Positions 2,639 through 47,156 of a stretch of DNA of 64,000 nucleotides are shown here, in pieces. Both the position numbers and the translations under genes were made by a program. Under the pieces are notes generated by a model. The model saw only the letters and a list, made by a program, of their open reading frames with translations, searched no databases and was not told the origin of the DNA. Positions within the stretch are counted from its first letter, which is position 1. Every line of letters begins with the position of its first letter. The DNA is taken from NCBI RefSeq assembly GCF_009914755.1, contig NC_060926.1, one strand, 5' to 3'. The DNA is from the human T2T-CHM13v2.0 reference genome, Homo sapiens.

Positions 2639-5406
2639 TAAATCGTAACAAGAGGGACTGAATGAAAATAAATTAAGATTCATAGATATCTACCTGGGAA
2701 CTTATTGGCCAGCGCTAAAGTTTTTAACTGGGGTTAGGGGAAACAAGTTAGAGTTGAAATTTGCCAGAATAGAAAGACAAAACAAAATAATTAAATACTA
2801 TCAACTTGCAAGAGAACTGTAGGACTGAACTTTCAGGCTTATCTGTGGAAATTCAGAAGTTGGCAGATGATGCAGAGATGATGCAGGTGCTGACACTGTA
2901 AGCTTCCAAGAAAAACGGTAATAAGAATCACAAATAATCCAGAACCTTCTATGGAATTGGAGTACAAAACGATTGCTGGGGCAATAAGTGTATTTGAAGG
3001 TTATGAGACACTAAACTGAATTCACCTTCCAAATCTCCCAAATTTGAGATGAAATCTTCTCCAAACCCCACTGAATTGAGAGAGCAATATATCAAAGGCG
3101 GCAATTACAAAAAAAAAAAAAAAAAACGGCCTTTCAAGGATTTTGAATTCTTAGAAGTAAACTCCCTATCTTGGCTTTGGAATTAGAATGAAAGTGGGCT
3201 CCTTTATAATTTCTAGAGATAAAGCTATGGAAACACATTTTTTTAAAAAAGCATTTCAATGATTTCTATGATTCAACGATTTGAATGAGCTCATTCAAAA
3301 ACCCTGTCATGTCAAAATGATTGAGACTCACAAATCCACGTTTCTAGCCAGAGCCAGCTTTGTAGTTTGTAGTAAACAGAAATAAATCACCCAGGTTTTT
3401 TAATACTTCAATTTATATAGTAGTTCCTAATTTAAAATAAATAAATAAAAGAAATTTGGTCTTTAAAGAGTATAAGAATTTCAATCCAATGATCTTTGTC
3501 ATAGTTAAGAGCATATATGAATAGTCTATACATGTGATTTAAAGTGTGACAAAATCTTTTGGTAGAATTACATAAAGCTGCTGACCAACTCGAGATTTTC
3601 TGACATCAGGAGATGTAAGATGATTCTGTAAAAAGCCTGATCAATATGCAACCATCAATGATGGAGTATGTCATCTAATTGTTCCTGTAAGATTTGAGAA
3701 ACCAGAAGCTTAAATGGCCTCAAGAGCCCAATTTATAAGTTACATTATTGAGACTCAGGCAGATTATCTACCTCGCTTATTAGGAGACCATACAAGTTTA
3801 ATTGGAGCTATTTATATTGGGTTATTCAGAGTCTTAAGGCATTAAACAATATAACACTATTCTCATATAATATCCACATAAATGACTAGACCTAGGAAAG
3901 TCTAAGCATAGTAATTAGGATAAACAGCTGGATAGCACAACCTGAGATTCTAAACAGTGCTTCTCCGGAATCACCTAGAGGTCTTTTTCTTCTGGGAAGA
4001 TAGAATAGACATACTTTTCCCTATTTCTTCTGCCATGTGCAGGTAAAATTCCAGATATTATACATCAAACACAGGTAAACTCTGAAAAGTAAAGAGAAAA
4101 AGGGAAGAAGCTCAGGACCCAAACAACATACCAGAAAGTTTCCTGGTATTTCACTTTTTCTCATATTTCACAGACCTGGAACTGACAACCCAGAAATATT
4201 GATAGGCACAAACCAAAAAATACATATAAACATATAAACAAGCAAAAACCCACAACAAAAGCCTACTCTATTAACCAAAGAATCAAGAGAAAGAGAGACA
4301 ATCTAGGGAGATTTTTTTTTTAATTCTAGAAAATAACCACTCTACTACAGCCAAATACAACAGAAATAAACTATGGCCCTAATCCCGACCACATCAGCAA
4401 AGACCAAGTGGAGAGAGCCTAGACTTCAATCCTCATGAGGGTATGATGTGGGACCCTCCAACATTACAACTGGGATAATGAAAGTGAAGGCCAAGCAGGA
4501 AGCCTAGACGTTCACCCTCACCAGGCTCTAACAGGGTGCCCCAACCACCACCAAACCTTCCTGTTTCCCAGGGTACAATCAAAGAAAACCAAGGAGAAGG
4601 TCAAGACTTTCATCCCCTCCAGGTAGTAGGAAGCACTCTCCTCCTGCAATGTTGGTGGTAATCACATAGAATCCCACTCACACCCAAAAAGAACAGAGTT
4701 CCCTCAAGTGAGTGCCAGTGGAGGCCAAATGGAATGGCTGGCTGGATGACTTCTTCACTCAACAATAATAAGACAGTGCCCTCCTTCCCCGTTGGAACAA
4801 TGTTAGACACCAGCTGAAACAGATTATTTAAATAAAATCCAGAATCTCATAACAAATACCCAAAATGTACAAGATTAAATTGAATATCACTCATTATACC
4901 AACAACCAAGAAGATCTTAAATCAAATTTTTTTTAAAAAAGAATCCTAACACCAATATGAAAGAAAAGTTAGAATTATCTGAAAAAGATTTTAAAGCAAC
5001 CATCATAAAAATGCTTCAATGAGCAATTATAAACATATTTGAAACAAATGAAAGTCTCAGCAAGCAAACAGAACAAAGAAACAAGCTTTAAAAAACACCT
5101 GAAAATTTTAGAACTGAAAAATACAATAAAAAATAAAAAATATCAATGGATAGGCTCAATAGCAAATGGTGAGGGCAAAAGAAAGTATCAATAAGCTAGA
5201 AGATAGATTAATAAAGATTACTTAATTTGAACAGAGAGAAAATAGACTTAAAAAGTGAACAAAGCCTCAGAAACCTGTGAGACTATACCGAAATATGTAG
5301 CATTCATTTTTATCAGAGTTCCAGAAGAAGAGGAGAAGTAAGGCAGGATTGAAAAAGTACTTGAAGAAATGAAACTTCTCAAATTTGGCAAACAACATAA
5401 GCCTAA

Positions 5407-5889
5407 TGGAACAGAAATTTAAAAAAATTAAAGACTGTATAAGCAAAAACTCAGTTGTATATAAGAAAAGCCAATTCCCCCTAAACAAGAGAAAGGGCTG
5501 GAGTCCTTTAAAATTAACTGCCTGTTTTTCTGTGGCTACTGAGCCTTATCTCTCCCTTTCCCAGGCATTGTAAAGACCCTGTTTCTCTAGCTGTGCAGCT
5601 GTAAGGTCACTAGATAGATAAACTCAAGTCATAAAACATATTTCCTTAAAAAGTAAAAAATAATGTAATGCATGTCTCAATTAAATAACTGTTTTTGTTT
5701 CTCACTTCTGTAATACGCTTCCCCCTGCACAGATCTCCCCCAGCCCACAAAATGCTTAAAAAGTAGTTTGACTCTTTGTTCGGGGCTCAGTCCTTTGGAT
5801 GTTAACCTGACTGGGTTGGTGCACCTAAATGATTAAATAATTCCTCCTCAACTCCTCGGTCTCTCTGATTCCTTCATTATCCCACAGCA
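5407..5889 (+). mobile_element. ERV1-class solo LTR (LTR15-like) inserted in the old L1 ORF1
   Basis: TG...CA termini (TGGAACAGAAATTT ... ATTATCCCACAGCA); flanks CTAA/CTAC form a 4-bp TSD with one mismatch; L1 sequence resumes (CTACAGATTCAAGAAG). Confidence 0.78.
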
Positions 5890-6318
5890 CTACAGATTCA
5901 AGAAGATTAATTCAAGAAATTGAACTTCAAACAGGATAAAGTTAAAGAAATCCACACCAGGACACATCTTGGTGAAGCTTTTGAAAACTAAAGACAAAAA
6001 AAAAAAAAAGCTTTAAAAGAAGTGAGAGAGAAACAAAAATTTACCTAAAAGAGAAAAACAATGAAATTAATAGTATATTTCTCACAGAAATCATGTAGGC
6101 CAGAGGAAATGGTAGATTTTCCAAGTACTGAAAGAAAATAACTGCCAAGTCAGAATTCCATACACAGCAAAAATTTCCTTTGGAAATGAAGGGTAAATTA
6201 AGACATTCTCAGATGAAGGAAGACTAAGAATTTGTTGGTAGCAGACCTATCCTAAAAGAATGACTAAAGGAAGTTCTCTAAACAGGTAGAAAACCAGAAG
6301 GGAATCTTTGAGTATCAG

Positions 6319-12923: not shown

Positions 12924-14824
<1,901 letters not shown>

Positions 14825-16154
14825 CACATATACACCATGGAATACTATGCAGCCATAAAAAATGATGAGTTCATATCCTTTGTAGGGACATGGATGAAAT
14901 TGGAAACCATCATTCTCAGTAAACTATCACAAGAACAAAAAACCAAACACCGCATATTCTCACTCATAGGTGGGAATTGAACAATGAGATCACATGGACA
15001 CAGGAAGGGGAATATCACACTCTGGGGACTGTGGTGGGGTCGGGGGGAGGGGGGAGGGATAGCATTGGGAGATATACCTAATGCTAGATGACACATTAGT
15101 GGGTGCAGTGCACCAGCATGGCACATGTATACATATGTAACTAACCTGCACAATGTGCACATGTACCCTAAAACTTAGAGTATAATAAAAAAAAAAAAAG
15201 AAAGAAAAAAAAAAAAAAAGAAATTATATTTAAGGAATTTGAGAGCTCTTCCATTGACAAATATAACTATTCAATTTCTTGTAATAACATGAAGACATTT
15301 TAAATCCAATTGAAATTTTCATATCAAGTATTTCAAAATAATGAGGAAGCCTTGATTTTTAGAATACATATATTTTAGAACAAAACCCTATAGCTAGCCT
15401 GGACATAAGTAAAACGGCCCATCCATGGATGGACAGAAGTATCTGATATTTGACAAGAAAGAGCTTCTTGATTCCCATCTGGGGGTGCAGTCACAAGGAA
15501 CCTCCATCTAGCCTGCCAGCCCCACCACCATCCCACTGGCATCACCTTAACCTACACCCTTGGCTGGTGCTCTTAAGACACCTAGAACATGAGATCATTC
15601 AGTAGTGCCCAGACTTCTTATGCATACTGAGCAGCAGAATGCCCTGCAACAGGCTGCTGGAGGAGATGAGGAGGGAGGCATGCCCTGGTACCGAAGCTAG
15701 GCCGGATAAGTACCTTTGCCATCCCCAGCACACATGGGGAGTGTGCTACCAGACGCTGCTCCTGGCTACCCTCTAAGAAGCCTTAGATAAAACTGCTCCC
15801 TCCAGAGACAGCTACCTGGGAGTTCCAGTTACCCCAGCCTTCCTAAGGGCTTAGGGGACCATTATCTTAGCATGCCATGGCAAACCCTATAAGAAGCTCT
15901 AGGATAGGGAGAAAACACAATCATTTTAAATAAGTATGGCATGTAAGTTCATTTTTCTAGTAGATATTCAGATGTGCTAACATTCACTGCTTACAGAAGA
16001 ACTTTTCAGTGTCTCACCTTTCTTTTCTGAAATGTGACATGGCTCCAGACTTAAAGGACCCTTAGTTGCATGTTGTGAATATCAAATAAACTTCTGACCT
16101 GAAAAAGAAACACAGAAAGATCACCAAATAAAACTGTCATAACACAGCTGTCAC

Positions 16155-24513: not shown

Positions 24514-24858
<345 letters not shown>

Positions 24859-25530
24859 TCACTTGCAGAACTATCTAATCAATAAACAGCACAACTCCAT
24901 GGTCAAAGTACCCCTTGAAAATAATAAACTATGAGGGCATTATTTTATTTTAAAATGTTAACATCAGGAATTTGGCATAATATAACTAGGAACTTCCAAG
25001 ATATTTTAAAGGGACTTTTTCATTTTACCTTCAATTTTTGTAATCTTGCTTTTAAAAACTTAAGTTGAATTTTCATTGAAATACTCCTTTCTTCATAAGA
25101 ATAAATTTTAATATTCTGGAGGTTGCATATGAAATTGTATTTTCTCTTAAAGGAGAGAATTTCATTTAACTATTCTACTCTTATTCCACCTGGTAATTTT
25201 GATTTCAGCACAAAGGAAAATGACAAAATATAATTGACATCCTAAGACATAGTATTTTAAAAAAGCCATTTTCAGGCTTGGGTTCCAAGATGGCCAAATA
25301 GGAACAGCTCCAGTCTATAGTTCCCAGCACAAGCAACGCAGAAGACGGATGATTTCTGCATTTCCAACTGAGGTACAGGGTTCATCTCACTGGGGACTGT
25401 TGGACAGTGGGTGCAGCGCACCAAGCGTGAGCTGAAGCAGGGCGAGGCATCGCCTCACCCAGGAAGCACAAGGGGTCAGGGAATTCCCTTTCCTAGCCAA
25501 GGAAAGGGGTGACAGACGGCACCTGGAAAA

Positions 25531-25713
25531 TCAGGTAACTCCCACCCTAATACTGCGCTTTTCCGACAGTCTTAGCAAACAGCACACCAGGAGATTATAT
25601 CCTGTGCCTGGCTCAGAGGGTCCTACGCCCACGGAGCCTCGCTCATTGCTAGCACAGCAGTCTGAGATCAAACTGCAAGGCGGCAGTGAAGCTGGGGGAG
25701 GGGCGGCCACCAT
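25531..25713 (-). CDS. LINE-1 ORF0 homolog (antisense 5' UTR ORF), 60 aa with early stop
   Basis: MVAAPPPASLPPCSLISDCCASNERGSVGVGPSEPG... matches the primate L1 ORF0 peptide; ATG in GCAATGG context; TGA after RVGVT. Confidence 0.75.
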   Translation of the reverse strand: MVAAPPPASLPPCSLISDCCASNERGSVGVGPSEPGTGYNLLVCCLLRLSEKRSIRVGVT

Positions 25714-26288
25714 TGCTGAGGCTTGAGCAGAAAAACAAAGCGGCCAGGAGGCTCAAACTAGCTGGAGCCCACCGCAGCTCAAGGAGGCCTGCCTGCCTCT
25801 GTAGACTCCACCTCTGGGGGCAGGGTATAGCCAAACAAAAGGCAGCAGAAACCTCTGCAGACTTAAATGTCCCTGTCTGACAGCTTGGAAGAGAGTAGTG
25901 GTTCTCCCAGCATGCAGCTTGAGATCTGAGAATGGACAGACTGCCTCATCAAGTGACTCCCTGACCCCCAAGTAGCCTAACTGGTAGGCACCCCCCAGCA
26001 GGGGCAGACTGACACCTCACACGGCCAGGTACCCCTCTGAGACAAAACTTCCAGAGGAACGATCAGGCAGCAGCATTTGCTATTCAACAATATTTGCTGT
26101 TCTGCAGCCTCTGCTGATGATACCCAGGCAAACAGGGTCTGGAGTGGACCTCTGGCAAACTCCAACAGACCTGCAGCTGAGGGTCCTGACTGTTAGAAGG
26201 AAAATTAACAAACAGAAAGGACATCCACACCAAAACCCCATCTGTACGTCACCATCATCAAAGACCAAAGGTAGATAAAACCACAAAG

Positions 26289-27299
26289 ATGGGGAAAAAA
26301 CAGAGCAGAAAAACTGAAAATTCTAAAAATCAAGAACGCCTCTCCTCCTCCAAAGGAACACAGCTCCTCACCAGCAAAGGAACAAAGCTGGACAGAAAAT
26401 GATGAGTTGAGAGAAGAAGGCTTCAGACGATCAAACTTCTCCGAGCTAAAGGAGGAAGTTTGAACCCATGCCAAAGAAGTTAAAAACCTTGAAAAAAGAT
26501 TAGATGAATGGCTAACTGGAATAACCAATGCAGAGAAGTCCTTAAAGGACCTGATGGAGCTGAAAACATGGCATGAGAACTACGTGACGAATGCACAAGT
26601 CTCAGTAGCCAATTTGATTAACTGGAAGAAAGGGTATCAGTGATGGAAGATGAAATGAATGAAATGAAGCGAGAAGAGAAGTATAGAGAAAAAGGAATAA
26701 AAAGAAACAAACAAAGCCTCCAAGAAATATGGGACTATGTGAAAAGACCAAATCTATGTCTGATTGGTGTAGCTGAAAGTGACGGGGAGAATGGAACCAA
26801 GTTGGAAAACACTCTGCAGGATATTATCCAGGAGAACTTCCCCAATCTAGCAAGGCAGGCCAACATTCAAATTCAGGAAATACAGAGAATGCCACAAAGG
26901 TACTCCTTGAGAAGAGCAACCCCAAGACACATAATTGTCAGATTCACCAAAGTTGAAATGAAGGAAAAAATGTTAAGGGCAGCCAGAGAGAAAGGTTGGG
27001 TTACCCACAAAGGGAAGCCCATCAGACTAACAGCGGATCTCTCGGCAGAAACTCTACAAGCCAGAAGAGAGTAGGGGACAATATTCAACATTTTTAATAA
27101 AACAATTTTCAACCCAGAATTTCATATCCAGCCAAACTAAGCTTCATAAGTGAAGAAGAAATAAAAATACTTTACAGACAAGCAAATGCTGAGAGATTTT
27201 GTCACCACCAGGCCTGCCCTAAAAGAGCTCCTGAAGGAAGCGCTAAACATGGAAAGGAACAACCGCTACCAGCCACTGCAAAATCATGCCAAATTGTAA
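26289..27299 (+). pseudogene. L1 ORF1p (disrupted)
   Basis: ATGGGGAAAAAACAGAGCAG start; ORF 26640..27074 EIWDYVKRPNL...RLTADLSAETLQARRE; in-frame stops and frameshifts. Confidence 0.93.
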
Positions 27300-27362
27300 A
27301 GACCATCAAGGCTAGGAAGAAACTGCATCAACTAACGAGCAAAATAACCAGCTAACATCATA

Positions 27363-28850
27363 ATGACAGGACCAAATTCACACATAACAATATTAACCTT
27401 AAATGTAAATGGGCTAAATGCTCCAATTAAAAGACACAGACCGGCAAATTGGATAAAGAGTCAAGACCCATCAGTGTGCTGTATTCAGGAAACCCATCTC
27501 ACGTGCAGAGACACACATAGGCTCAAAATAAAGGGATGGAGGAAGCTCTACTAAGCAAATGGAAAACAAAACTACTTTAAACTTCATACGGAACCAAAAA
27601 AGAGCCCGCATTGACAAGTCAATCCTAAGCCAAAAGAACAAAGCTGGAGGCATCACGCTACCTGACTCCAAACTATACTCCAAGCCTACAGTAACCAAAA
27701 CAACATGGTACTGGAACCAAAATAGAGATATAGACCAATGGAACAGAACAGAGCCCTCAGAAATAATGCCATACATCTACAATTATCTGATCTTTGACAA
27801 ATCTGACAAAAACAAGAAATGGGAAAACGATCCCCTATTTAATAAATGGTACTGGGAAAACTGGCTAGTCATATGTAGAAAGCTGAAACTGGATCCCTTC
27901 CTTACACCTTACACGGGATGGATTAAAGACTTAAATCTTAGACCTAAAACCATAAAAACCCTAGAAGAAAACCTAGGCAATACCATTCAGGACATAGGCA
28001 TGGGCAAGGTCTTCATGTCTAAAACACCAAAAGCAATGGCAACAAAAGCCAAAATTGACAAATGGGATCTAATTAAACTAAAGAGCTTCTGCACAGCAAA
28101 AGAAACTACCATCAGAGTGAACAGGCAACCTACAGAATGGGAGAAAATTTTTGCAATCTACACATCTGACAAAGGGCTAATATCCAGAATCTACAATGAA
28201 CTCAAACAAATTTACAAGAAAAAAACAACCCCATCAATAAGTGGGTGAAGGATATGAACAAACACTTCTCAAAAGAAGACATTTATGCAGCCAAAAGACA
28301 CATGAAAAAATGCTCATCATCACTGGCCATCAGAGAAATGCAAATCAAAACCACAATGAGATACCATCTCACATCAGTTAGAATGGCGATCATTAAAAAG
28401 TCAGGAAACAACAGGTGCTGGAGAGGATGTCGAGAGATAGGAACACTTTTACACTGATGGTGGGACTGTAAACTAGTTCAACCCTTGTGGAAGTCAGTGT
28501 GGCGATTCCTCAGGGATCTAGAACTAGAAATACCATTTGACCCAGCCATCCCATTACTGGGTATATACCCAAAGGATTATAAATCATGCTGCTATAAAGA
28601 CACATGCACACATATGTTTATTGCGGCACTATTCACAATAGCAAAGACTTGGAACCAGCCCAAATGTCCAACAATGATAGACTGGATTAAGAAAATGTGG
28701 CACATATACACCATGGAATACTATGGAGCCATAAAAAAGATGAGTTCATGTCCTTTGTAGGGACATGGATGAACCTGGAAACCACCATTCTCAGCAAACT
28801 ATCGCAAGGACAAAAAACCAAATACTGCATGTTCTCACTCATAGGTGGGA
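27363..28850 (+). pseudogene. L1 ORF2p: endonuclease N-terminus fused out of frame to the C-terminal third; RT domain deleted
   Basis: MTGPNSHITILTLNVNGLN... then jump to [14 protein letters not shown]; junction ~27560-27572. Confidence 0.92.
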
Positions 28851-29076
28851 ATTGAACAGTGAGAACAGTTGGACACAGGAAGGGGAACATCACACACTGG
28901 GGCCTGTTGTGGGGTGGGGAGAGGGAGAAGGGATAGCATTAGGAGATATACCTAATGTAAATGACGAGTTAATGGGTGCAGCACACCAACATGGCACATG
29001 TATACATATGTAACAAACCTGAAAGTTGTGCACATGTATCCTAAAACTTAAAGTATAATTAAAAAAAAAAAAAAAA

Positions 29077-29227
29077 CGGGAGTTTCTTTGCACAGGCTCT
29101 CTCTTTGCCTGCTGCCATCCATGTAAGACGTGACTTGCTCCTCCTTGCCTTCTGCCATGATTGTAAGGCCTCCCCAGCCACACGGAACTGTAAGTCCACT
29201 AAACCTCTTTGGTTAAAAAAAAAAAAA
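29077..29227 (+). other. 3'-transduced THE1 (THE1A/B-like) LTR fragment plus second poly(A)
   Basis: CGGGAGTTTCTTTGCACAGGCTCTCTCTTTGCCTGCTGCCATCCATGTAAG...GGAACTGTAAGTCCACTAAACCTCTTT lies between two A-tails and inside the L1 TSD. Confidence 0.9.
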
Positions 29228-29391
29228 GAAGCCATTTTCATTCCAATATAAGGGTTTACAAGGTTTCTAGAGAGTCAGTCCACTTATTAACAGTATTTTA
29301 GTTCAGAGAAAGTAGAATTCTGTTCTACACAGGCAGGCATGAAATAAACTGTGAACAACCACTTCCCGCAAAACAACAAAAGGAATCTTGT

Positions 29392-30926: not shown

Positions 30927-33900
30927 ACATCTATTTTGTTCATCTATTATCTCTCATAGTATCCAGCACAGGCATTCAGGAAAAATTTCAGTATAAAGGA
31001 ATGAATCCCAATCAGGGGTAGCTACAGAGAGAGAGAAAGAAAACAGCTGGTGTAAACTCTCTATTAAAGATGTTACTTCAGAAACTACAGAGATGTTAAG
31101 AATTATCTACATTTATGGTAAGAAACTTAATGTATAAGGAAGCAACCTGGCCAATGCAGAAAATAAATGCTATGAAATGTCATAAGATTCAAACACTGAT
31201 TTGTCCACACACAAAACCAGGACAAGGAAAGGTGATAGGCTAAACAAGACCAGAACTGAGACAACTCCCACTTTGTGGGGCTTTGTCAGTTTATGACATT
31301 ACAAGGTTGCAATGTAGACATTAGAACCACAAAATATCGTTTTTGTCATTTATTATACATGAGATCACATGTATTTTTATGTAGCAGTAATATACATGGA
31401 TGTATTTTATGTGTACTTTGTATGTAATCATATGTCAGAGTATTGTTTTTCTCTATTTATCCTTTTGTTGACTTTAGAAATCCCAAAATTAACAAGCTTT
31501 TTAAATGTCGTAGAAGAGAAGACAGCTGAACCAAGAGGATAGGACTGATAATGGTCTTCACGATTCTGGTGCTACTTAAAAAAAGGATACTCAAACAATC
31601 TTGCTCCTTCCTGGGACTCAGCACTCCATACACTGTCTTACAATGGATACAGGGTTAGAGTAGCTATTGTGATATTTTCAATCCTACCATAATTTTAGAA
31701 ACATTATTAAACTTCAAGTCTGAAGATGCTTAAATGTATTAAAAAGCAACTGTTATCAGTCAGGGTTCTCCAGACACATAGAACAAATAGGATATATTTG
31801 GCAAATGTCAAATTTGTAGGACAGGCCGGCAGACTGGAATGCAGACAGGATTTTGTATATTATAGTCTTGAGGCAGAATTCCTTTTTTTTTTTTTTTTAA
31901 GGAAATCTTAGTTTTTGCTCTTAAAGCTTTCAACTGATTAGGTGAGGCCCACCCACATTACAGAGGATAACCTCTTCCACTTTTTTTGTTTTGTTTTTGT
32001 TCTCTTTTCAACTTTTATTTTGAGCTCAAGGGGTACATGTGCAAGTTTGTTACAAAGGCAAATTGTGTTTCACGGGGATTTGGGGTACAGATAATTTTGT
32101 CACCCAGGTAATCTGCATAATACCTAATAAATATTATAGTTTCTCAAACCTTACCTACTCTCACTCTCTACCCTCAAATAGGCTCCAGTGTCTGTTGTTC
32201 CCTTCTTTGTGTCCATGTGTAATCAACAGAATTTAGTTCACACTTACAAGCGAGAACATGCAGTATTTGATTTTCTGTTCCTGCATTAATTTGCTTTGGA
32301 TAATGGCCTCCAGGTCCATCCATGTTGCTGCAAAGGCCATAATATTTTTTTAATAGCTGCATAGTATTTCATGGTATATATGTACCACACTCTCCTTATC
32401 CAGTCCATCACTGGTAGGCATCTAGACATGATTCTATGTCTTTGCTATTGTGAATAGTGTACATGTATCTTATGGTAGAATGATTTACATTCCTTTGAGT
32501 ATATACCCAGTAATGAGATTGCTGGGTCAAATGCTAGTTCTGCTTTTGGCTATTTGAGGAGTCACCGTACTGCTTTCCGCAATGGCTGAACTAATTTACA
32601 GTCACACCAACAGTGTATAAGTGTTCCCTTTTCTCTGCAACTTTACCAGCATCTTTTATTTTTTGACTTTTTATTAATATCCATTCTGATTGTTATGAGA
32701 TGGTATCTCATTGTGGTTTTGATTTGCATGTCCCTAATGATAAGTCATATTGAGAATTCTTTCATATGTTTGTTGGCCACATCCATGTCTTCTTTTGAGA
32801 AGTGTTCACATCCTTTGCCCATTTTTAATGGGTTTTTTGCATATTGATTTCTGAGTTTCTTATAGGTTATCAATATTAGACCTTTATCAAACGCATGGTT
32901 TGCAAATATTTTCTCATATTCTGTAGGTTGTCTGTTTATTATTTGTTTTGGGGGTTTTTTTGTTTGCTTTTTTTTGTTTTGGGTTTTTTTGTTTGTTTTT
33001 TGCTGTGCAGAATCTCTTTAGTTTAATTAGGTCCCATTTGTCAATTGTTGCAATTGTTTTTTGTGACTTCATCATGAAATCTTTGCCAGTTCCTATTTCC
33101 AGAATGGTATTTCCTAAGTTTTCTTATAGTTTTAGGTTTTACGTTTAAGTCTTCAATCCATCTTGGGTAAATTTTTATATATGGTAAAATTCAGGGATCC
33201 AGTTTCAATCTTCTGCATATGACTAGTCAGTTATCCCAGTACCATTTATTGAATAGGGAATCCTTTCCCCATTGCTTGTTTTGTCAGATTTTTTGAAGAT
33301 CAGATGGTTGTAGGTGTGCAACTTTATTTCTAGGTTATCTAACCTGTTCCATTGGTCTACATGTCTGTTTTTGTATCAGTACTATGCTGTTTCAGTTACT
33401 GTAGCCTTGCAGTATAGCTTGAAATCAGGTAGTGATACCTGCAGCTTTTTTCTTTTTGTTTAGGATTGCTCTGACTGTATGGGCTCCTTTTCTGGTTCCA
33501 AATAAATTTTAGAATAATTTTTTTAATTCTGTGAAAAGTATCATTGGTAGATAGGAACAGCATTGAATCTATAAATTGCTTTGGTCAGTATGGCCAGTTA
33601 AACAGTAGTGATTCTTCCTATCCATGAGCATGGAATATTTTTCCATTTGTTTGTGTTGCCTCTGATGCCTTTCAGCAGTGTTTTGTAATTCTCATTGCAG
33701 ATATCTTTCACCTTCCTGGTTAACTGTATTCCTAGGTATTTTATTCCTTTGGTGGCTATTGAGAATGGAATTTCATTCTTGATTTAGCTCTCAGCTTGGA
33801 CATTGTTAGTGTATAGAAATGCTACTCATTTTTGTACATCGATTTTGTATCCTGAAACCTTGCTGAACTTGTTCATAAGATCTAAGAGCCTTTGAGCAAA

Positions 33901-33990
33901 GATTATGGGGTTTTCTAGGTATAGTATCATATCATCTGCAAAGAAATAATTTGACTTTCTCTCTTCTTATTTGGATAGGATTTTTTTTTA

Positions 33991-34101
33991 ATTTTGTGGT
34001 AACACATTTCCTTACCAATTGCTTCTCTGAAAGAGATCTTTTTCTTCTGCGTTTATGAAGCTTAGTTTGGCTGGATATGAAATTCTTGGTTGGAATTTCT
34101 T
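33991..34101. repeat. Dispersed direct duplication of 36271-36382 (L1 ORF1 3' segment placed in ORF2)
   Basis: 111/112 bp alignment with 3 substitutions and one 1-bp indel. Confidence 0.95.
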
Positions 34102-36786
34102 CTCTTGCCTGATTGCTCTGGCTAGGACTTCCAGCACTATGTTGAATAGGAGTGGTGACAGTGGGAATACTTTTCTTGTTCTGGTTCTCAAGTGGAATGC
34201 TTCTAGCTTTTGCCCATTTAGTATGATGTTAGCTGTGGGTTTGTAATAGATGGCTCTTATTATTTTATGATACGTACCTTTGATTCCAAGTTTTTTTAGA
34301 GTTTTAACATGAAAGGATATTGAATTTTATTGAAAGCCTTTTCTGTGTCTATTGAGATGATCATGTGGGTTTTGGTTTTGGTTCTGTTTATGAAATGGAT
34401 CACATTTATTGATTTGTGTAAGATGAGCCAACCTTGCATCCCAGATAAAGTCTACTTGATCATAGTGAATTAGCTTTTTGCTATGTTGCTAGATTTAGTT
34501 TGTTAGTATTTTGTTAAAGATTTTTATATGTCTGTTCATCAGGGATATTGACCTGAAGTTTTCTTTTTTCACTTGGCTCTGCCAGGTTCTGTTATCAGAA
34601 TTATTCTGGCCTCATAGAATGAGTTAGAGAGGAGACCCTCCTCAATGATTTTTTTGAAATAGTTTCAGTAGGATTGGTACCAGCTCGTCTTTATACATGT
34701 AGTAAAATTCGGTAGTGAATCTGTCTGCTACAGGGATTTTTCTGATTGGTAGGTTTTTTTGTTATTCATTCAGTTTCAGAACTCGTTGTTGACCTGTTCA
34801 GGGTTTCAATTTCTTCCTGGTTCGATCTTGGGAGGTTGTATGTTTCCAGAAATGTATCTATTTCTTTTAGGTTTTCTAGTTTGTGTGCATAGAGGTGCTC
34901 ATAATAGTTTCTGAGGGTTTTTGTACTTCCGTGGGGTCAGTGGTAATGCACCCTTTGTCACTTCTGATTGTGTTTATTTGGATCTTCTCTTTTTCTGTAT
35001 TATTAGCCTAGCAAGCAGTCTGTCAATCGTACTTATTCTTTTGAAAAACCAACTTTTGGTTTCCTTGATGTTTTATACGGTTTTTCTCATTTCCATTTAA
35101 TTCAGTTCAGCTCTAATTTTTGTTATTTTCTTCTGCTACTTTTGATATTGGTTTCCTCTTCTTTTTCAAGTTCCTCTAGGTGTGATGTTAGGTTGTTAAC
35201 TTGAGATCTTTCTAACTTTTTGATGTGGGTGTTTAGAGCTACAAACTTTCCTCTTAACACTGTTTTAGCTGTGTCCCAGAGATTCTGTTACATTGTATCT
35301 TTGTTTTCATTAATTTCAAAGATTTTCTTGATTCCTGCCTTAATTTCATTGTTTACCCAAAAGTCATTCAGGAACAGATTAATTTCCATTTTATTGTATG
35401 GTTTTGAGAAATGTTCTTGGTATTGATTTCTATTTTTATTGTGCTCCAGTCTGACAGTGTGGTTGGTATTATTTCCATTTTTTAATTTGTTGAGAATTGC
35501 TTTATGGCTGAGCATGTGGTCAATTTTAGAGTGTGTTTCATGAGCAGATGAGAAGAATGTATACTCTGTTTTTGTTGGGTGGAGTGTTCGGTAAATGTCT
35601 GTTAGATCCATCTACAGATTCTTGGTCAAGAGTAAATTTAGGTCCTGAATATCTTCGTTAGCATTCTGCTTTGATCTGTCCAATATTGTTAGTGTGGTGT
35701 TGAAGTCTCCCACTACTATTGTGTTTATCGAAGTCTCTTCATAGGTCTCTAAGAGCTTATTTTATGAATCTGGGTGCTCCAGTGTTGGGTGCATACATAC
35801 TTAGGATAGTTAAGTCTTCTTGTTGAATTAAACCCTTTATCATTATGTAATGCCCTTCTTTTTCCTTTTTTATCATTATTGGTTTAAAGTTGGTTTTGTT
35901 TAAAATAAGAATAGCAACTCCTGCTCTTTTTTGTTTTCTATTTGCTTGATAGATCTTTCTCCCTCCCTTTACTTTGAACCTGTGGGTGTCCTTGCATGTG
36001 AGCTGGGTCCCTTGAAGACAACATACATGGGTCTTGCTTCTTAATCCAACTTGTTACTCTATGTCTTTTAAGTGAGGTGTTTAACCCATTTATGCTCAAG
36101 GTTAATACTGATATGTGCAGATTTGATCCTGCCATTATTTTGTTAGCTGGTTGTTATGTAGACTTGATTGTGTATTTGCTTTATGTTGTTGATGATCTAT
36201 GTACTTGAGTGTGTTTTCATGGTGGTCATTTCCATGTTTAGCACTCCCTTAAGGACCTCTTATAAGGTAGATCTTGTGGTAACACATTTCCTTACCAATT
36301 GCTTCTCTGAAAGAGATCTTATTTCTTCTGTGTTTATGAAGCTTAGTTTGGCTGGATATGAAATTCTTGGTCGGAATTTCTTTTCTTTAAGGTTGGTGAA
36401 TATAGGCCCTCAATCTCTTCGGGCTTGTAGTTTCTGCTGAAAGGTCTGCTGTTAGCCTGATGGGGTTCCCTTTGTAGGTGACCTGCCCCTCCTCTTGAGC
36501 TGCGTTTAATATTTTTTCTCTTTCACATTGACCTTGAAGAATCTGATGACTATTTGTCTTGGAGATGGTCCTCTTGTACTATATTTCACAGGGGTCCTCT
36601 AAATTTTTTGAATTTGTATGCTGACTCCTCTTGTGGGGTTGGGGAAATTTCTGTGAACAATATCCTCAAATACGTTTCCCAATTTTCTTGTTTTCTCTCC
36701 CTTTCAGATATGCCAATGAGTCATAGATTTGGACTCTTTACATAATACTATATTTTTCCAAGTTTTTTTTTTTCTTGTCTGAGTTA

Positions 36787-46344: not shown

Positions 46345-46701
46345 TGTATTAGTCCATTCTCACACTGCTAATGAAGACATACCAGAGACTGGGTAATTTT
46401 TAAAGGAAAGATGTTTAATTGGCTCACAGGTCCACATGGCTAGAGAGGCTTCACAATCATGGCAGAAGGCAAAGGAGGAGCAAAGTCATGTCTTATGTGG
46501 TAGCAGGCAAAGAGAGTTTGTGCAGGGGAACTCCCATCTATAAACCCATCAGATCTTGTGAGACTTATTCACTACCATGAGAACAGTATGGGGTAAACTA
46601 CCCCCATGATTCAATTATCTCCACCTGAACCCACCCTTGACACATGGAGATTATTACAATGCAAGGTTAGATTTGGGTGGGGATACAGCCCAACCATATC
46701 A
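46345..46701 (-). mobile_element. THE1 (THE1C-like) solo LTR
   Basis: TGTATTAGTCCATTCTCACACTGCT ... CAGCCCAACCATATCA; TSD ACTAC/ACAAC. Confidence 0.92.
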
Positions 46702-46751
46702 ACAACAGATACTTCCCCCACCCTTGAGTTAAACATCTACTTCATAGAGCC

Positions 46752-47156
46752 TAATATAGTTTGGATCTGTGTCCCGGCCCAACTCTCATGTCAAATTGTA
46801 ATCCCTCCTGTTAGAGGTGGGACCTAGTGGGAGGTAACTAGATCATGGAGGCAGATTTCTCATGATGGTTTACTACCATCCCCTTGGTGCTGTTCTCATG
46901 AGCTCTGGTCATTTAAAAATGGGTAGCACCTCACCCCTCTCTCTCTTGCTCCTGCTCCAGCCATGTGAAGTGCCAACTCTCCCTTCACCTTCCACCATGA
47001 CTGTAAGTTTCCTGAGACTGCCCCAGAAACCAAGCAGATGCCAGCATCATGCTTTCTATGCATCCTGTGGAACTGTGAGCCAATTAAACTTCTTTCCTTT
47101 ATAAATTACCCAGTCTTAGGTATTTCTTTATACCAACGCAAGAATGGCCTAACACA
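46752..47156 (+). mobile_element. MSTA-like solo LTR
   Basis: TAATATAGTTTGGATCTGTGTCCC ... GGCCTAACACA; perfect TSD GAGCC (46747-46751 / 47157-47161). Confidence 0.9.

What the first reader, a model, noticed from the sequence alone, without database searches (positions are those of the whole stretch)
25259..29240. L1 3' transduction that captured a THE1 LTR fragment and appears to use the LTR's own poly(A) signal
Seen: after the L1 poly(A) (29061-29076) come ~138 bp of THE1 LTR U3/R-like sequence, a second A-tail (29215-29227), and only then the 3' TSD copy AAGCCATTTTCA (29229-29240, matching 25263-25274; endonuclease site TTTT/AA). The THE1 piece has neither LTR terminus and the rest of the LTR is not left of the L1, so it is not a resident THE1. 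The second tail starts 11 nt after ACTAAA (29198-29203), the position of the THE1 ATTAAA signal. Established: L1 transcripts read through their weak poly(A) signal and co-mobilise downstream flank. Inference: the source L1 sat inside a THE1 LTR at its TTTT/AAAAACGGG site and borrowed the LTR terminator, so this tag is a lineage barcode for finding the parent and sibling elements.
Basis: partly seen in the sequence, partly recalled or inferred. Interest (0 to 1): 0.8.

Follow-up and report, generated by a model that had tools for sequence, protein, structure and literature searches.

The report
L1 copy carrying an LTR-derived tag
A dead, internally deleted L1 retrotransposon carried along 138 bases of the neighbouring LTR from its source site, which is an ordinary example of the well-known process called 3' transduction.

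Summary
An L1 starts at its true 5' end (25275) and ends in a 16-A tail (29061-29076). Then come 138 bp of a MaLR (THE1/MST-type) LTR (29077-29214) and a 13-A tail. The 12-mer AAGCCATTTTCA flanks the whole unit; it occurs twice in the window, against 0.01 expected.

The LTR piece matches positions about 171-303 of a 366-bp LTR. Its start is an L1-endonuclease hot spot, TTTT/AAAAA(Y)GGGAG. Of 56 other junctions found in this genome, 10 carry an L1 and 26 an Alu at that exact position, and three of the L1s are full length. Its end lies 11 nt after the LTR's poly(A) hexamer, where other LTR-derived retrocopies are also tailed.

3' transduction is the best reading (about 0.85). No parent or sibling was found in this genome, so the "barcode" leads nowhere here. 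A retrocopy nested in the L1's A-tail cannot be excluded without ape and monkey orthologues.

The L1 also has a private 2,315-bp deletion. It keeps the 129-bp 5'UTR segment, so it is L1PA3 or older. This is a textbook mechanism and of low interest.

The parts
25259..25274 (+). 5' copy of the target-site duplication. The perfect 12-mer AAGCCATTTTCA is at 25263-25274. The 16-nt version AAAAAAGCCATTTTCA matches its partner at 15 of 16 positions. It is preceded by TTTT (25255-25258), so the endonuclease site is TTTT/AAAA.
25275..26288 (+). L1 5' UTR starting at L1 nucleotide 1. It aligns in register with the 5' ends of three full-length L1s. It includes the 129-bp segment at 26032-26160, which the L1 in L056 lacks.
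   Evidence: passage on the 129-bp deletion in PMC5860796
26289..27299 (+). ORF1 remnant, broken by stop codons. The piece 26640-27074 matches Pfam Transposase_22 (1.5e-59) and Tnp_22_trimer (1e-17).
27363..27571 (+). ORF2 start and the N-terminal part of the endonuclease domain (Exo_endo_phos, E 1.2e-4, 22.3 bits, which is below the 24.5-bit curated cut-off).
27568..27571 (+). Junction of a 2,315-bp internal deletion that removes the rest of the endonuclease and the reverse transcriptase. It lies between the imperfect repeats TGGAAAACAAAA and TGGAAAAAA. There is no GT..AG. No other copy in the genome shares this junction.
27572..29060 (+). C-terminal ORF2 remnant and 3' UTR of the L1. The ORF2/3'UTR boundary near 28844 is placed from memory, not from a call.
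29061..29076 (+). First A-tail, 16 A. On the transduction reading this is the parent L1's genomic tail, merged with the LTR's own AAAAA.
29077..29214 (+). 138-bp fragment of a MaLR (THE1/MST-type) LTR, equivalent to positions about 171-303 of a 366-bp LTR. It contains neither LTR terminus.
29198..29203 (+). ACTAAA, at the position of the LTR poly(A) hexamer. Among 78 LTR copies, 55 have ATTAAA and 22 have AATAAA here. It lies 11 nt before the second tail.
29215..29227 (+). Second A-tail, 13 A, followed by G at 29228.
29229..29240 (+). 3' copy of the target-site duplication, AAGCCATTTTCA.

Best explanation
This is an L1 3' transduction. A full-length L1PA element (L1PA3 or older) had inserted, in sense orientation, into a MaLR (THE1/MST-type) LTR at the LTR's A-rich TTTT/AAAAA(C)GGGAG site. 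One of its transcripts read through the weak L1 poly(A) signal. It was cleaved and polyadenylated about 130 nt downstream at the LTR's own poly(A) site (hexamer ATTAAA-type, now ACTAAA; cleavage 11 nt later). That RNA was reverse-transcribed at a TTTT/AAAAAAGCC site at this locus on chromosome 2, producing a 12-16 bp target-site duplication around the whole composite. What is shown: the composite layout, the duplication, the LTR identity and extent of the tag, the hot-spot nature of the start point, and the poly(A)-site nature of the end point. What is inferred: that the two parts travelled on one RNA, and the position of the parent. The parent is not present in this assembly within the limits of my searches. 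The likeliest reason is that it was a polymorphic insertion that was lost. The 2.3-kb ORF2 deletion is private to this copy. It arose by a microhomology event, either during reverse transcription or later in the genome. The copy is non-functional.
For: (1) The layout was read directly. The flanking 12-mer occurs only twice in 64 kb, against 0.01 expected.

(2) The tag is LTR sequence, 86-95% identical to the 39 non-self copies scored, and covers LTR positions 166-303 of 366. No other part of the LTR lies next to the L1.

(3) The start of the tag is a recurrent insertion site. A search for poly(A)+YGGGAGTTYCYYTGCACARGC gave 57 hits against 0 for the reversed control. Of the 56 non-self hits, 10 have an L1 3' end directly upstream, 26 have an Alu, and 20 are native LTRs with a longer A-run. 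In all 10 L1 cases the LTR runs on to its 3' terminus, so they are resident LTRs hit by L1. Three of the 10 are full-length L1s with duplications such as AAAAATGGGAGTTTCC. That is exactly the configuration inferred for the source.

(4) The end of the tag is the LTR poly(A) site. The hexamer position is ATTAAA or AATAAA in 77 of 78 copies. Other LTR fragments are A-tailed 13-19 nt after it, and three of those (L105, L106, L108) sit inside their own target-site duplications.

(5) There is an independent look-alike. L100 (chr4:38.50 Mb) has an older L1 3' end, an A-rich tail, a MaLR LTR fragment beginning at the homologous TTTAAAA site, an A14 tail at the LTR poly(A) site, and then non-LTR DNA.

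(6) Transduction is common. An abstract seen in a search listing states that about 25% of L1 insertions carry one (PMC13009371). The mechanism is summarised in the listing text of PMC9311842.
Against: I found no source locus (an L1 followed by this tag running on into the LTR's U5) and no sibling with the same tag.

The three full-length L1s at the hot spot are not the parent. The L1 in L056 lacks the 129-bp 5'UTR segment that this copy has, and its LTR is only 86.9% identical to the tag. L052 and L058 are much older L1s, 77-87% identical.

The LTR copies closest to the tag are uninterrupted. L003 (chr1:62.57 Mb) is 95% identical and shares 3 of the tag's 5 rare variants. L007 (chrX:62.82 Mb) is 91% identical and shares two rare variants plus the terminal CTCTTTGGT.

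The searches were limited. Only 40 of 2,625, 40 of 1,409 and 40 of 2,408 candidates were scored, and the patterns allowed at most 2-3 mismatches.

The same final structure would result if an LTR-terminated RNA had been retrocopied into the A-tail of an L1 already sitting here. Its own duplication would consist only of A's and would be invisible. Stand-alone retrocopies of that kind do exist (L105, L106, L108).

The target-site duplication of the look-alike L100 could not be confirmed: the 13-mer after its tail has no second copy nearby on that contig.
Confidence: 0.85

Rival explanations
1. Two separate events. The L1 inserted first, with the AAGCCATTTTCA duplication. Later a 5'-truncated, polyadenylated retrocopy of an RNA ending at a MaLR LTR poly(A) site (for example a MaLR element transcript) was inserted by L1 machinery into the L1's own A-tail. 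The second event's target-site duplication would be a run of A's and therefore invisible.
For: Stand-alone LTR 3' fragments with A-tails and their own target-site duplications exist in this genome (L105, L106, L108). So do 3' LTRs that run from their 5' terminus, with MaLR internal sequence upstream, to an A-tail at the poly(A) site (L098, L109). This shows such RNAs were retrocopied. That A-tails are good endonuclease targets, and that an A-run in the RNA could favour microhomology joining at exactly this start point, is established knowledge recalled from memory, not tested here.
Against: It needs two coincidences: landing exactly in the L1 tail, and 5' truncation exactly at the LTR's A-run. 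The three orphans start at other, scattered LTR positions. The start point is explained directly by the hot spot, where 10 L1s and 26 Alus sit. A second L1+LTR-fragment composite that starts at the homologous site (L100) would require the same double coincidence again. My rough estimate, which is inference and not a computation, favours transduction by more than 10 to 1.
Confidence: 0.09
2. A template-switch chimera. During one reverse-transcription event the L1 reverse transcriptase first copied a short polyadenylated LTR-derived RNA. On reaching its 5' end, it jumped to the poly(A) tail of an L1 RNA.
For: The layout (3' partner with tail, then an L1 with tail, within one duplication) is formally compatible. 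That L1-mediated chimeric retrocopies such as U6-L1 are known is recalled from memory; no paper was read for this.
Against: The RNA's 5' end would have to lie exactly at the A-run, which is where insertions cluster. It is not where an LTR-initiated transcript would be expected to start; that would be some 25-30 nt downstream of the TATA-like A-run, which is inference from general promoter geometry. Known chimeras usually begin on L1 or Alu RNA and switch to the other RNA, which is the opposite order (recalled).
Confidence: 0.03
3. A resident LTR fragment that was already at the site, with the L1 inserted beside it and the flanking repeat arising by chance.
For: None beyond the presence of LTR sequence next to an L1.
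Against: The fragment has neither LTR terminus, and no other LTR part lies within 17 kb. The fragment ends in a pure 13-A tail at the LTR poly(A) site. The 12-mer duplication brackets L1 plus fragment, and chance expectation for it is 0.01. There is no duplication around the L1 alone: the L1 tail runs straight into CGGGAG.
Confidence: 0.01

Closest known systems
L1 3' transduction (read-through of the weak L1 poly(A) signal and co-mobilisation of 3' flank). Original descriptions by Moran 1999, Goodier 2000 and Pickeral 2000 are recalled and were not read. PMC13009371 and PMC9311842 were seen as abstracts in the listing.
   Same: L1 with its own tail, then a unique 3' segment with a downstream poly(A) hexamer 11 nt before a second tail. 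One target-site duplication surrounds everything. The target is of the endonuclease type.
   Different: Nothing in kind. The transduced segment happens to be repeat DNA (a MaLR LTR piece), so it is a poor locus-specific tag. No source or sibling could be found in the same genome. The L1 body carries an extra private 2.3-kb deletion.
L1-mediated processed pseudogenes of endogenous retroviral RNAs (described for HERV-W; recalled, not read)
   Same: RNAs that end at an LTR's R/poly(A) site are copied by L1 machinery and end in an A-tail with target-site duplications. L098, L105, L106, L108 and L109 look like this.
   Different: Here the LTR piece is joined to a complete L1 5' end and L1 tail. It starts at an L1 insertion hot spot rather than at a transcript start or a random truncation point.
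Chimeric retrocopies made by reverse-transcriptase template switching (U6-L1 type; recalled, not read)
   Same: Two unrelated RNA-derived parts lie inside one target-site duplication.
   Different: The order of the parts and the presence of a full internal A-tail fit read-through better than switching. The junction coincides with a genomic insertion hot spot.

Membership tests
L1 3' transduction event | The L1 3' end with its own A-tail is followed by non-L1 sequence | tested here: met
   16 A at 29061-29076, then 138 bp of LTR sequence
L1 3' transduction event | The extra segment ends in a second A-tail, 10-30 nt after a poly(A) hexamer | tested here: met
   ACTAAA at 29198-29203, then 11 nt, then 13 A. 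The hexamer position is ATTAAA or AATAAA in 77 of 78 LTR copies
L1 3' transduction event | One target-site duplication brackets L1 plus extra segment, at an endonuclease-type site | tested here: met
   The 12-mer occurs only at 25263-25274 and 29229-29240, against 0.01 expected. The site reads TTTT/AAAAAAGCC
L1 3' transduction event | A source locus exists where a full-length L1 is followed by the same flank | tested here: inconclusive
   Not found in this assembly. The searches scored only 40 candidates each, or allowed at most 3 mismatches. A lost polymorphic parent would leave no trace
L1 3' transduction event | L1 and tag arrived together: orthologues show all or nothing | not testable with these tools
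   No primate genomes are held
LINE-1, L1PA lineage | L1 5' UTR start, ORF1 domains, ORF2 endonuclease and reverse transcriptase, 3' UTR, A-tail | tested here: met
   The 5' end is in register with three full-length L1s. Transposase_22 at 1.5e-59 and Tnp_22_trimer at 1e-17. The endonuclease N-terminus is only weak (22.3 bits against a 24.5-bit cut-off). The reverse-transcriptase region is absent because of the 2,315-bp deletion. Pairwise identity to other L1PA copies is 91-95%
   A 129-bp extra segment at 26032-26160 relative to the L1 in L056. The meaning of the segment is taken from passages of PMC5860796. An exact subfamily was not assignable without a repeat library
MaLR LTR (THE1/MST) | Sequence similarity to the interior of complete LTR copies of the family | tested here: met
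   86-95% identity to 39 scored non-self copies. Aligns to positions 166-303 of the 366-bp LTR in L003
MaLR LTR (THE1/MST) | Assignment to THE1 rather than MST | not testable with these tools
   No Dfam or Repbase library is available. The closest copies have ...TGTAAATTGCCCAG after the poly(A) site, which I recall as MST-like, but this is memory only

The most novel reading that the evidence does not exclude
MaLR LTRs may act as a recurrent 'landing pad plus terminator' for L1. The LTR's TATA-like TTTTAAAAA site attracts L1 and Alu insertions (36 of 56 junctions examined). The LTR poly(A) site about 130 nt downstream then ends L1 read-through transcripts. Together these would produce a small class of L1 progeny, and perhaps orphan fragments, that carry the same about 130-nt LTR tag from different sources. 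This copy and L100 would be two independent members. In this case the tag would be the only surviving record of a source insertion that was never fixed, possibly at or near the LTR at chr1:62.57 Mb, which shares 3 of the tag's 5 rare variants.
Probability: 0.3. Interest if true: 0.3.

Novelty: new member of a known kind. Interest (0 to 1): 0.12.

Why it matters
It matters little. L1 3' transduction is a textbook process, and reference-genome surveys have catalogued many cases. This copy is dead: its ORFs are broken and the reverse transcriptase is deleted. It lies in a region with no annotated gene, and the tag leads to no parent or sibling in this assembly. Two modest points of wider use came out of the work. 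First, a specific A-rich site in THE1/MST-type LTRs is hit again and again by L1 and Alu. Second, the LTR's poly(A) site is demonstrably used by RNAs that were later retrocopied. Tags taken from repeats are poor lineage barcodes, because thousands of LTR copies are 90-95% identical to them.

Tried and rejected
Parent search:
- Tag plus flanks as a DNA query. Of the 20 non-self loci checked (the 19 loci given plus L021, fetched), only L021 has an L1 upstream. It is a roughly 290-bp truncated L1 in a resident LTR. L002 has an Alu at the same site.
Only three other copies carry the tag's TTTCTTTGCACAGGCTC variant. L003 and L007 are uninterrupted. L052 holds a much older L1, with the tag only 82.6% identical.
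- A query spanning the junction. This gave two further L1-in-LTR loci (L092, L093), both resident LTRs with dissimilar tags.
- L056 was rejected as the parent. Its L1 lacks the 129-bp segment, is no closer to this L1 (92%) than unrelated copies are (93-95%), and its tag is 86.9% identical.

Sibling search:
- Tag end plus tail pattern. There were 16 non-self hits. The two I could fetch (L090, L091) are native LTRs with expanded A-runs. The other 14 were not fetched and look the same from the printed strings.
- Deletion junction as a query. Only the window's own copy spans it, 1 of 40 scored.

Other checks:
- Splicing as the cause of the internal deletion was rejected. There is no GT..AG, and the deletion is flanked by imperfect repeats.
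- A target-site duplication for the look-alike L100 was not found with a 13-mer.
- A literature search for MaLR LTR poly(A) usage gave only copy numbers and ages (MST 34k copies, THE1 37k copies; Table 1 of PMC1794541), and nothing on the poly(A) site itself.
- One paper search failed on term syntax and one returned nothing.
Full report
**What is there.** I read the region directly, and every coordinate in the finding holds.
- The L1 5' UTR starts at 25275, immediately after AAGCCATTTTCA (25263-25274).
- The L1 ends in a pure 16-A tail (29061-29076).
- It is followed by 138 bp that are not L1 (29077-29214), a pure 13-A tail (29215-29227), one G, and AAGCCATTTTCA again (29229-29240).
- The 12-mer occurs only at these two places in the 64-kb window. 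Expectation is 0.01, and 0 of 100 shuffles reached two matches.
- Counting the leading A's, the duplication is 16 nt with one mismatch.
- The pre-insertion site would read TATTTT/AAAAAAGCCATTTTCA, a typical L1-endonuclease target. The consensus TTTT/AA is recalled knowledge, not from a call.

**The L1.** It has a genuine 5' end, in register with the first bases of three full-length L1s fetched from the same genome. It is nevertheless only 3.8 kb long.
- Relative to the full-length L1 in locus L056, 2,315 bp are missing at window 27568-27571. This removes most of the endonuclease and all of the reverse transcriptase.
- The breakpoints lie in the imperfect repeats TGGAAAACAAAA and TGGAAAAAA and have no GT..AG. 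This is a microhomology deletion, not a spliced L1 RNA.
- No other copy shares the junction. Of 40 scored hits (1,409 candidates), only the window's own copy spans it.
- Pfam finds the ORF1 RNA-binding and trimerisation domains (1.5e-59 and 1e-17). It finds only a sub-threshold endonuclease N-terminus. All reading frames are broken.
- Pairwise identity to other L1PA copies is 91-95% over 0.6-1.6 kb.
- The element has 129 bp (26032-26160) that the L1 in L056 lacks. Passages of PMC5860796 state that a 129-bp 5'UTR segment bearing the ZNF93 site is present in L1PA3/L1PA4 and deleted in L1PA2/L1PA1. This copy is therefore L1PA3 or older.

**The 138-bp tag.**
- A search of the window's own genome gave 2,625 candidates. 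The 39 non-self hits that were scored are 86-95% identical.
- The tag aligns to positions 166-303 of the 366-bp LTR in locus L003. The only other LTR-like matches in the window are 17 kb away, at 46345-47144.
- I could not test whether it is THE1 or MST, because no repeat library was available. The closest copies continue with ...TGTAAATTGCCCAG, which I recall as MST-like.

**Why the tag starts where it does.** Native LTR copies read ...GGTTTTAAAAA[C/T]GGGAGTTTC... at this position.
- A pattern demanding nine A's in front of YGGGAGTTYCYYTGCACARGC, with at most 2 mismatches, found 57 places, against 0 for the reversed control.
- Of the 56 non-self places, 10 have an L1 3' end directly upstream, 26 have a sense Alu, and 20 are native LTRs with a somewhat longer A-run. 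L039 and L040 are an inverted duplicate of one Alu event.
- In all 10 L1 cases the LTR continues to its normal 3' terminus. They are therefore resident LTRs hit by L1, not siblings of this element.
- Three of the 10 (L056, L052, L058) are full-length L1s with the LTR's 5' half upstream and duplications such as AAAAATGGGAGTTTCC.

**Why the tag ends where it does.**
- At the second base of the hexamer, 55 of 78 aligned LTR copies have T (ATTAAA) and 22 have A (AATAAA). The tag's C (ACTAAA) is shared by one copy. The hexamer was thus probably canonical when used.
- I searched for YTAAACCTCTTT followed within 16 nt by ten or more A's. This gave 24 distinct places including this one. The reversed control also gave 25 raw matches, so the pattern alone proves little.
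- Five places looked native from the printed strings. I fetched the other 18. Their breakdown:
  - Three have no LTR similarity (L095, L097, L099).
  - L105, L106 and L108 are short LTR 3' fragments that end in A-tails 13-15 nt after the hexamer. They sit inside their own duplications (GACTAGAGGCAAATTA; GAAAGGATTTGCA; an imperfect 11-mer).
  - L098 and L109 are 3' LTRs with MaLR internal sequence upstream that stop in an A-tail at the same site.
  - L100 has an older L1 3' end, an A-rich tail, a MaLR LTR fragment beginning at the homologous TTTAAAA site, an A14 tail 19 nt after the hexamer, and then non-LTR DNA.
- The LTR poly(A) site is therefore used by RNAs that were retrocopied. L100 is an independent look-alike of the present structure, although I could not confirm its duplication.

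**Search for parent and siblings.** None was found.
- of the 20 non-self loci checked (the 19 given plus L021, fetched), only L021 has an L1 upstream. It is a roughly 290-bp truncated L1 in a resident LTR.
- Searches added L054-L058, L052, L067, L068, L075, L092 and L093. All are resident LTRs.
- L056 is excluded as the parent. Its L1 lacks the 129-bp segment. It is no closer to this L1 (92%) than unrelated copies are (93-95%). Its LTR is 86.9% identical to the tag.
- L052 and L058 hold much older L1s, 77-87% identical.
- The tag has five positions where its base is rare among the 78 LTR copies. These copies are a biased sample, because 19 of them were chosen for similarity to the tag. L003 (chr1:62.57 Mb, 95% identical) shares three of the five. 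L004 shares three. L007 (chrX:62.82 Mb, 91%) shares two plus the terminal CTCTTTGGT. L003 and L007 are uninterrupted at the site.
- These copies may simply belong to the same LTR sub-lineage. Alternatively, one could be the empty allele of a source insertion that was never fixed. 138 bp cannot decide between these.
- The tag-end pattern gave 16 non-self hits. The two I could fetch are native LTRs with expanded A-runs.
- All of these searches are lower bounds: 40 candidates were scored per DNA search, and patterns allowed at most 3 mismatches.

**Mechanism and rivals.** The best reading is a one-step 3' transduction (0.85): L1 read-through into the LTR flank, with cleavage at the LTR poly(A) site.
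- The main rival (0.09) is a nested event. In it, an LTR-terminated RNA is retrocopied into the A-tail of an L1 already here, and its duplication consists only of A's.
  - Retrocopies of that kind exist.
  - But the rival needs both a hit in the tail and a 5' truncation exactly at the A-run, and again in L100. The hot spot explains the start point directly.
- Template switching (0.03) and a resident fragment (0.01) fit worse. A resident fragment is contradicted.
- The outgroup test that would separate transduction from nesting cannot be run here, because no primate genomes are held.

**Comparison with what is known, and verdict.** This is an ordinary member of a textbook class.
- The abstract of PMC13009371 states that about 25% of L1 insertions carry a transduction. 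The summary of PMC9311842 describes the mechanism. I saw both only in the listing.
- The original papers (Moran 1999; Goodier 2000; Pickeral 2000) are recalled and were not read.
- Nothing about the element is new in kind. It is dead, it lies in a region with no annotated gene, and its repeat-derived tag does not work as a barcode in this genome.
- Interest is low. The only mildly general observations are the recurrent L1/Alu hot spot in MaLR LTRs and the evidence that the LTR poly(A) site was used by retrocopied RNAs.

Noticed in passing
loci L022-L083 (own genome); native site shown: The A-rich site TTTTAAAAA(Y)GGGAG in THE1/MST-type LTRs is a recurrent target of L1 endonuclease. Of 56 junctions with a long A-run at this position, 10 carry an L1 3' end and 26 a sense Alu. 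Three of the L1s are full length with clear duplications.
   Followed up: partly
L098, L109 (and possibly L094, L096, L103, L111), own genome: These LTR copies run from their 5' terminus to an A-tail at the LTR poly(A) site and lack U5. In L098 and L109, MaLR internal sequence lies upstream. They look like L1-mediated retrocopies of MaLR transcripts. Their target-site duplications were not checked.
   Followed up: no
L105, L106, L108 (own genome): Short stand-alone LTR 3' fragments (about 40-160 bp) end in A-tails at the LTR poly(A) site, inside their own target-site duplications. They are either orphan transductions or 5'-truncated retrocopies of LTR-terminated RNAs.
   Followed up: partly
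L100 (chr4:38,500,655-38,501,055 of the own genome): An older L1 3' end, an A-rich tail, a MaLR LTR fragment from the homologous TTTAAAA site to the poly(A) site, A14, then non-LTR DNA. This is a second composite of the same kind. Its target-site duplication was not found with a 13-mer.
   Followed up: partly
window 12992-15195: A young L1 fragment, 98% identical to the L1 in L056, has its 5' part inverted. L1 positions about 3860-4893 lie on the minus strand and abut positions 4879-6048 on the plus strand at 14025. This is the layout expected from twin priming.
   Followed up: no
window 24520-24788; 32185-36755 (minus strand); 46345-47144: There is an Alu 490 bp upstream of the element, old L1 pieces (66-79% identical to a young L1) downstream on the minus strand, and an unrelated, diverged MaLR LTR 17 kb downstream.
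   Followed up: no
L039 / L040 (chrX:104,711,050 minus strand and 104,722,883 plus strand): The same Alu-in-LTR junction is present twice in inverted orientation, 12 kb apart. This is an inverted duplication on the X chromosome.
   Followed up: no
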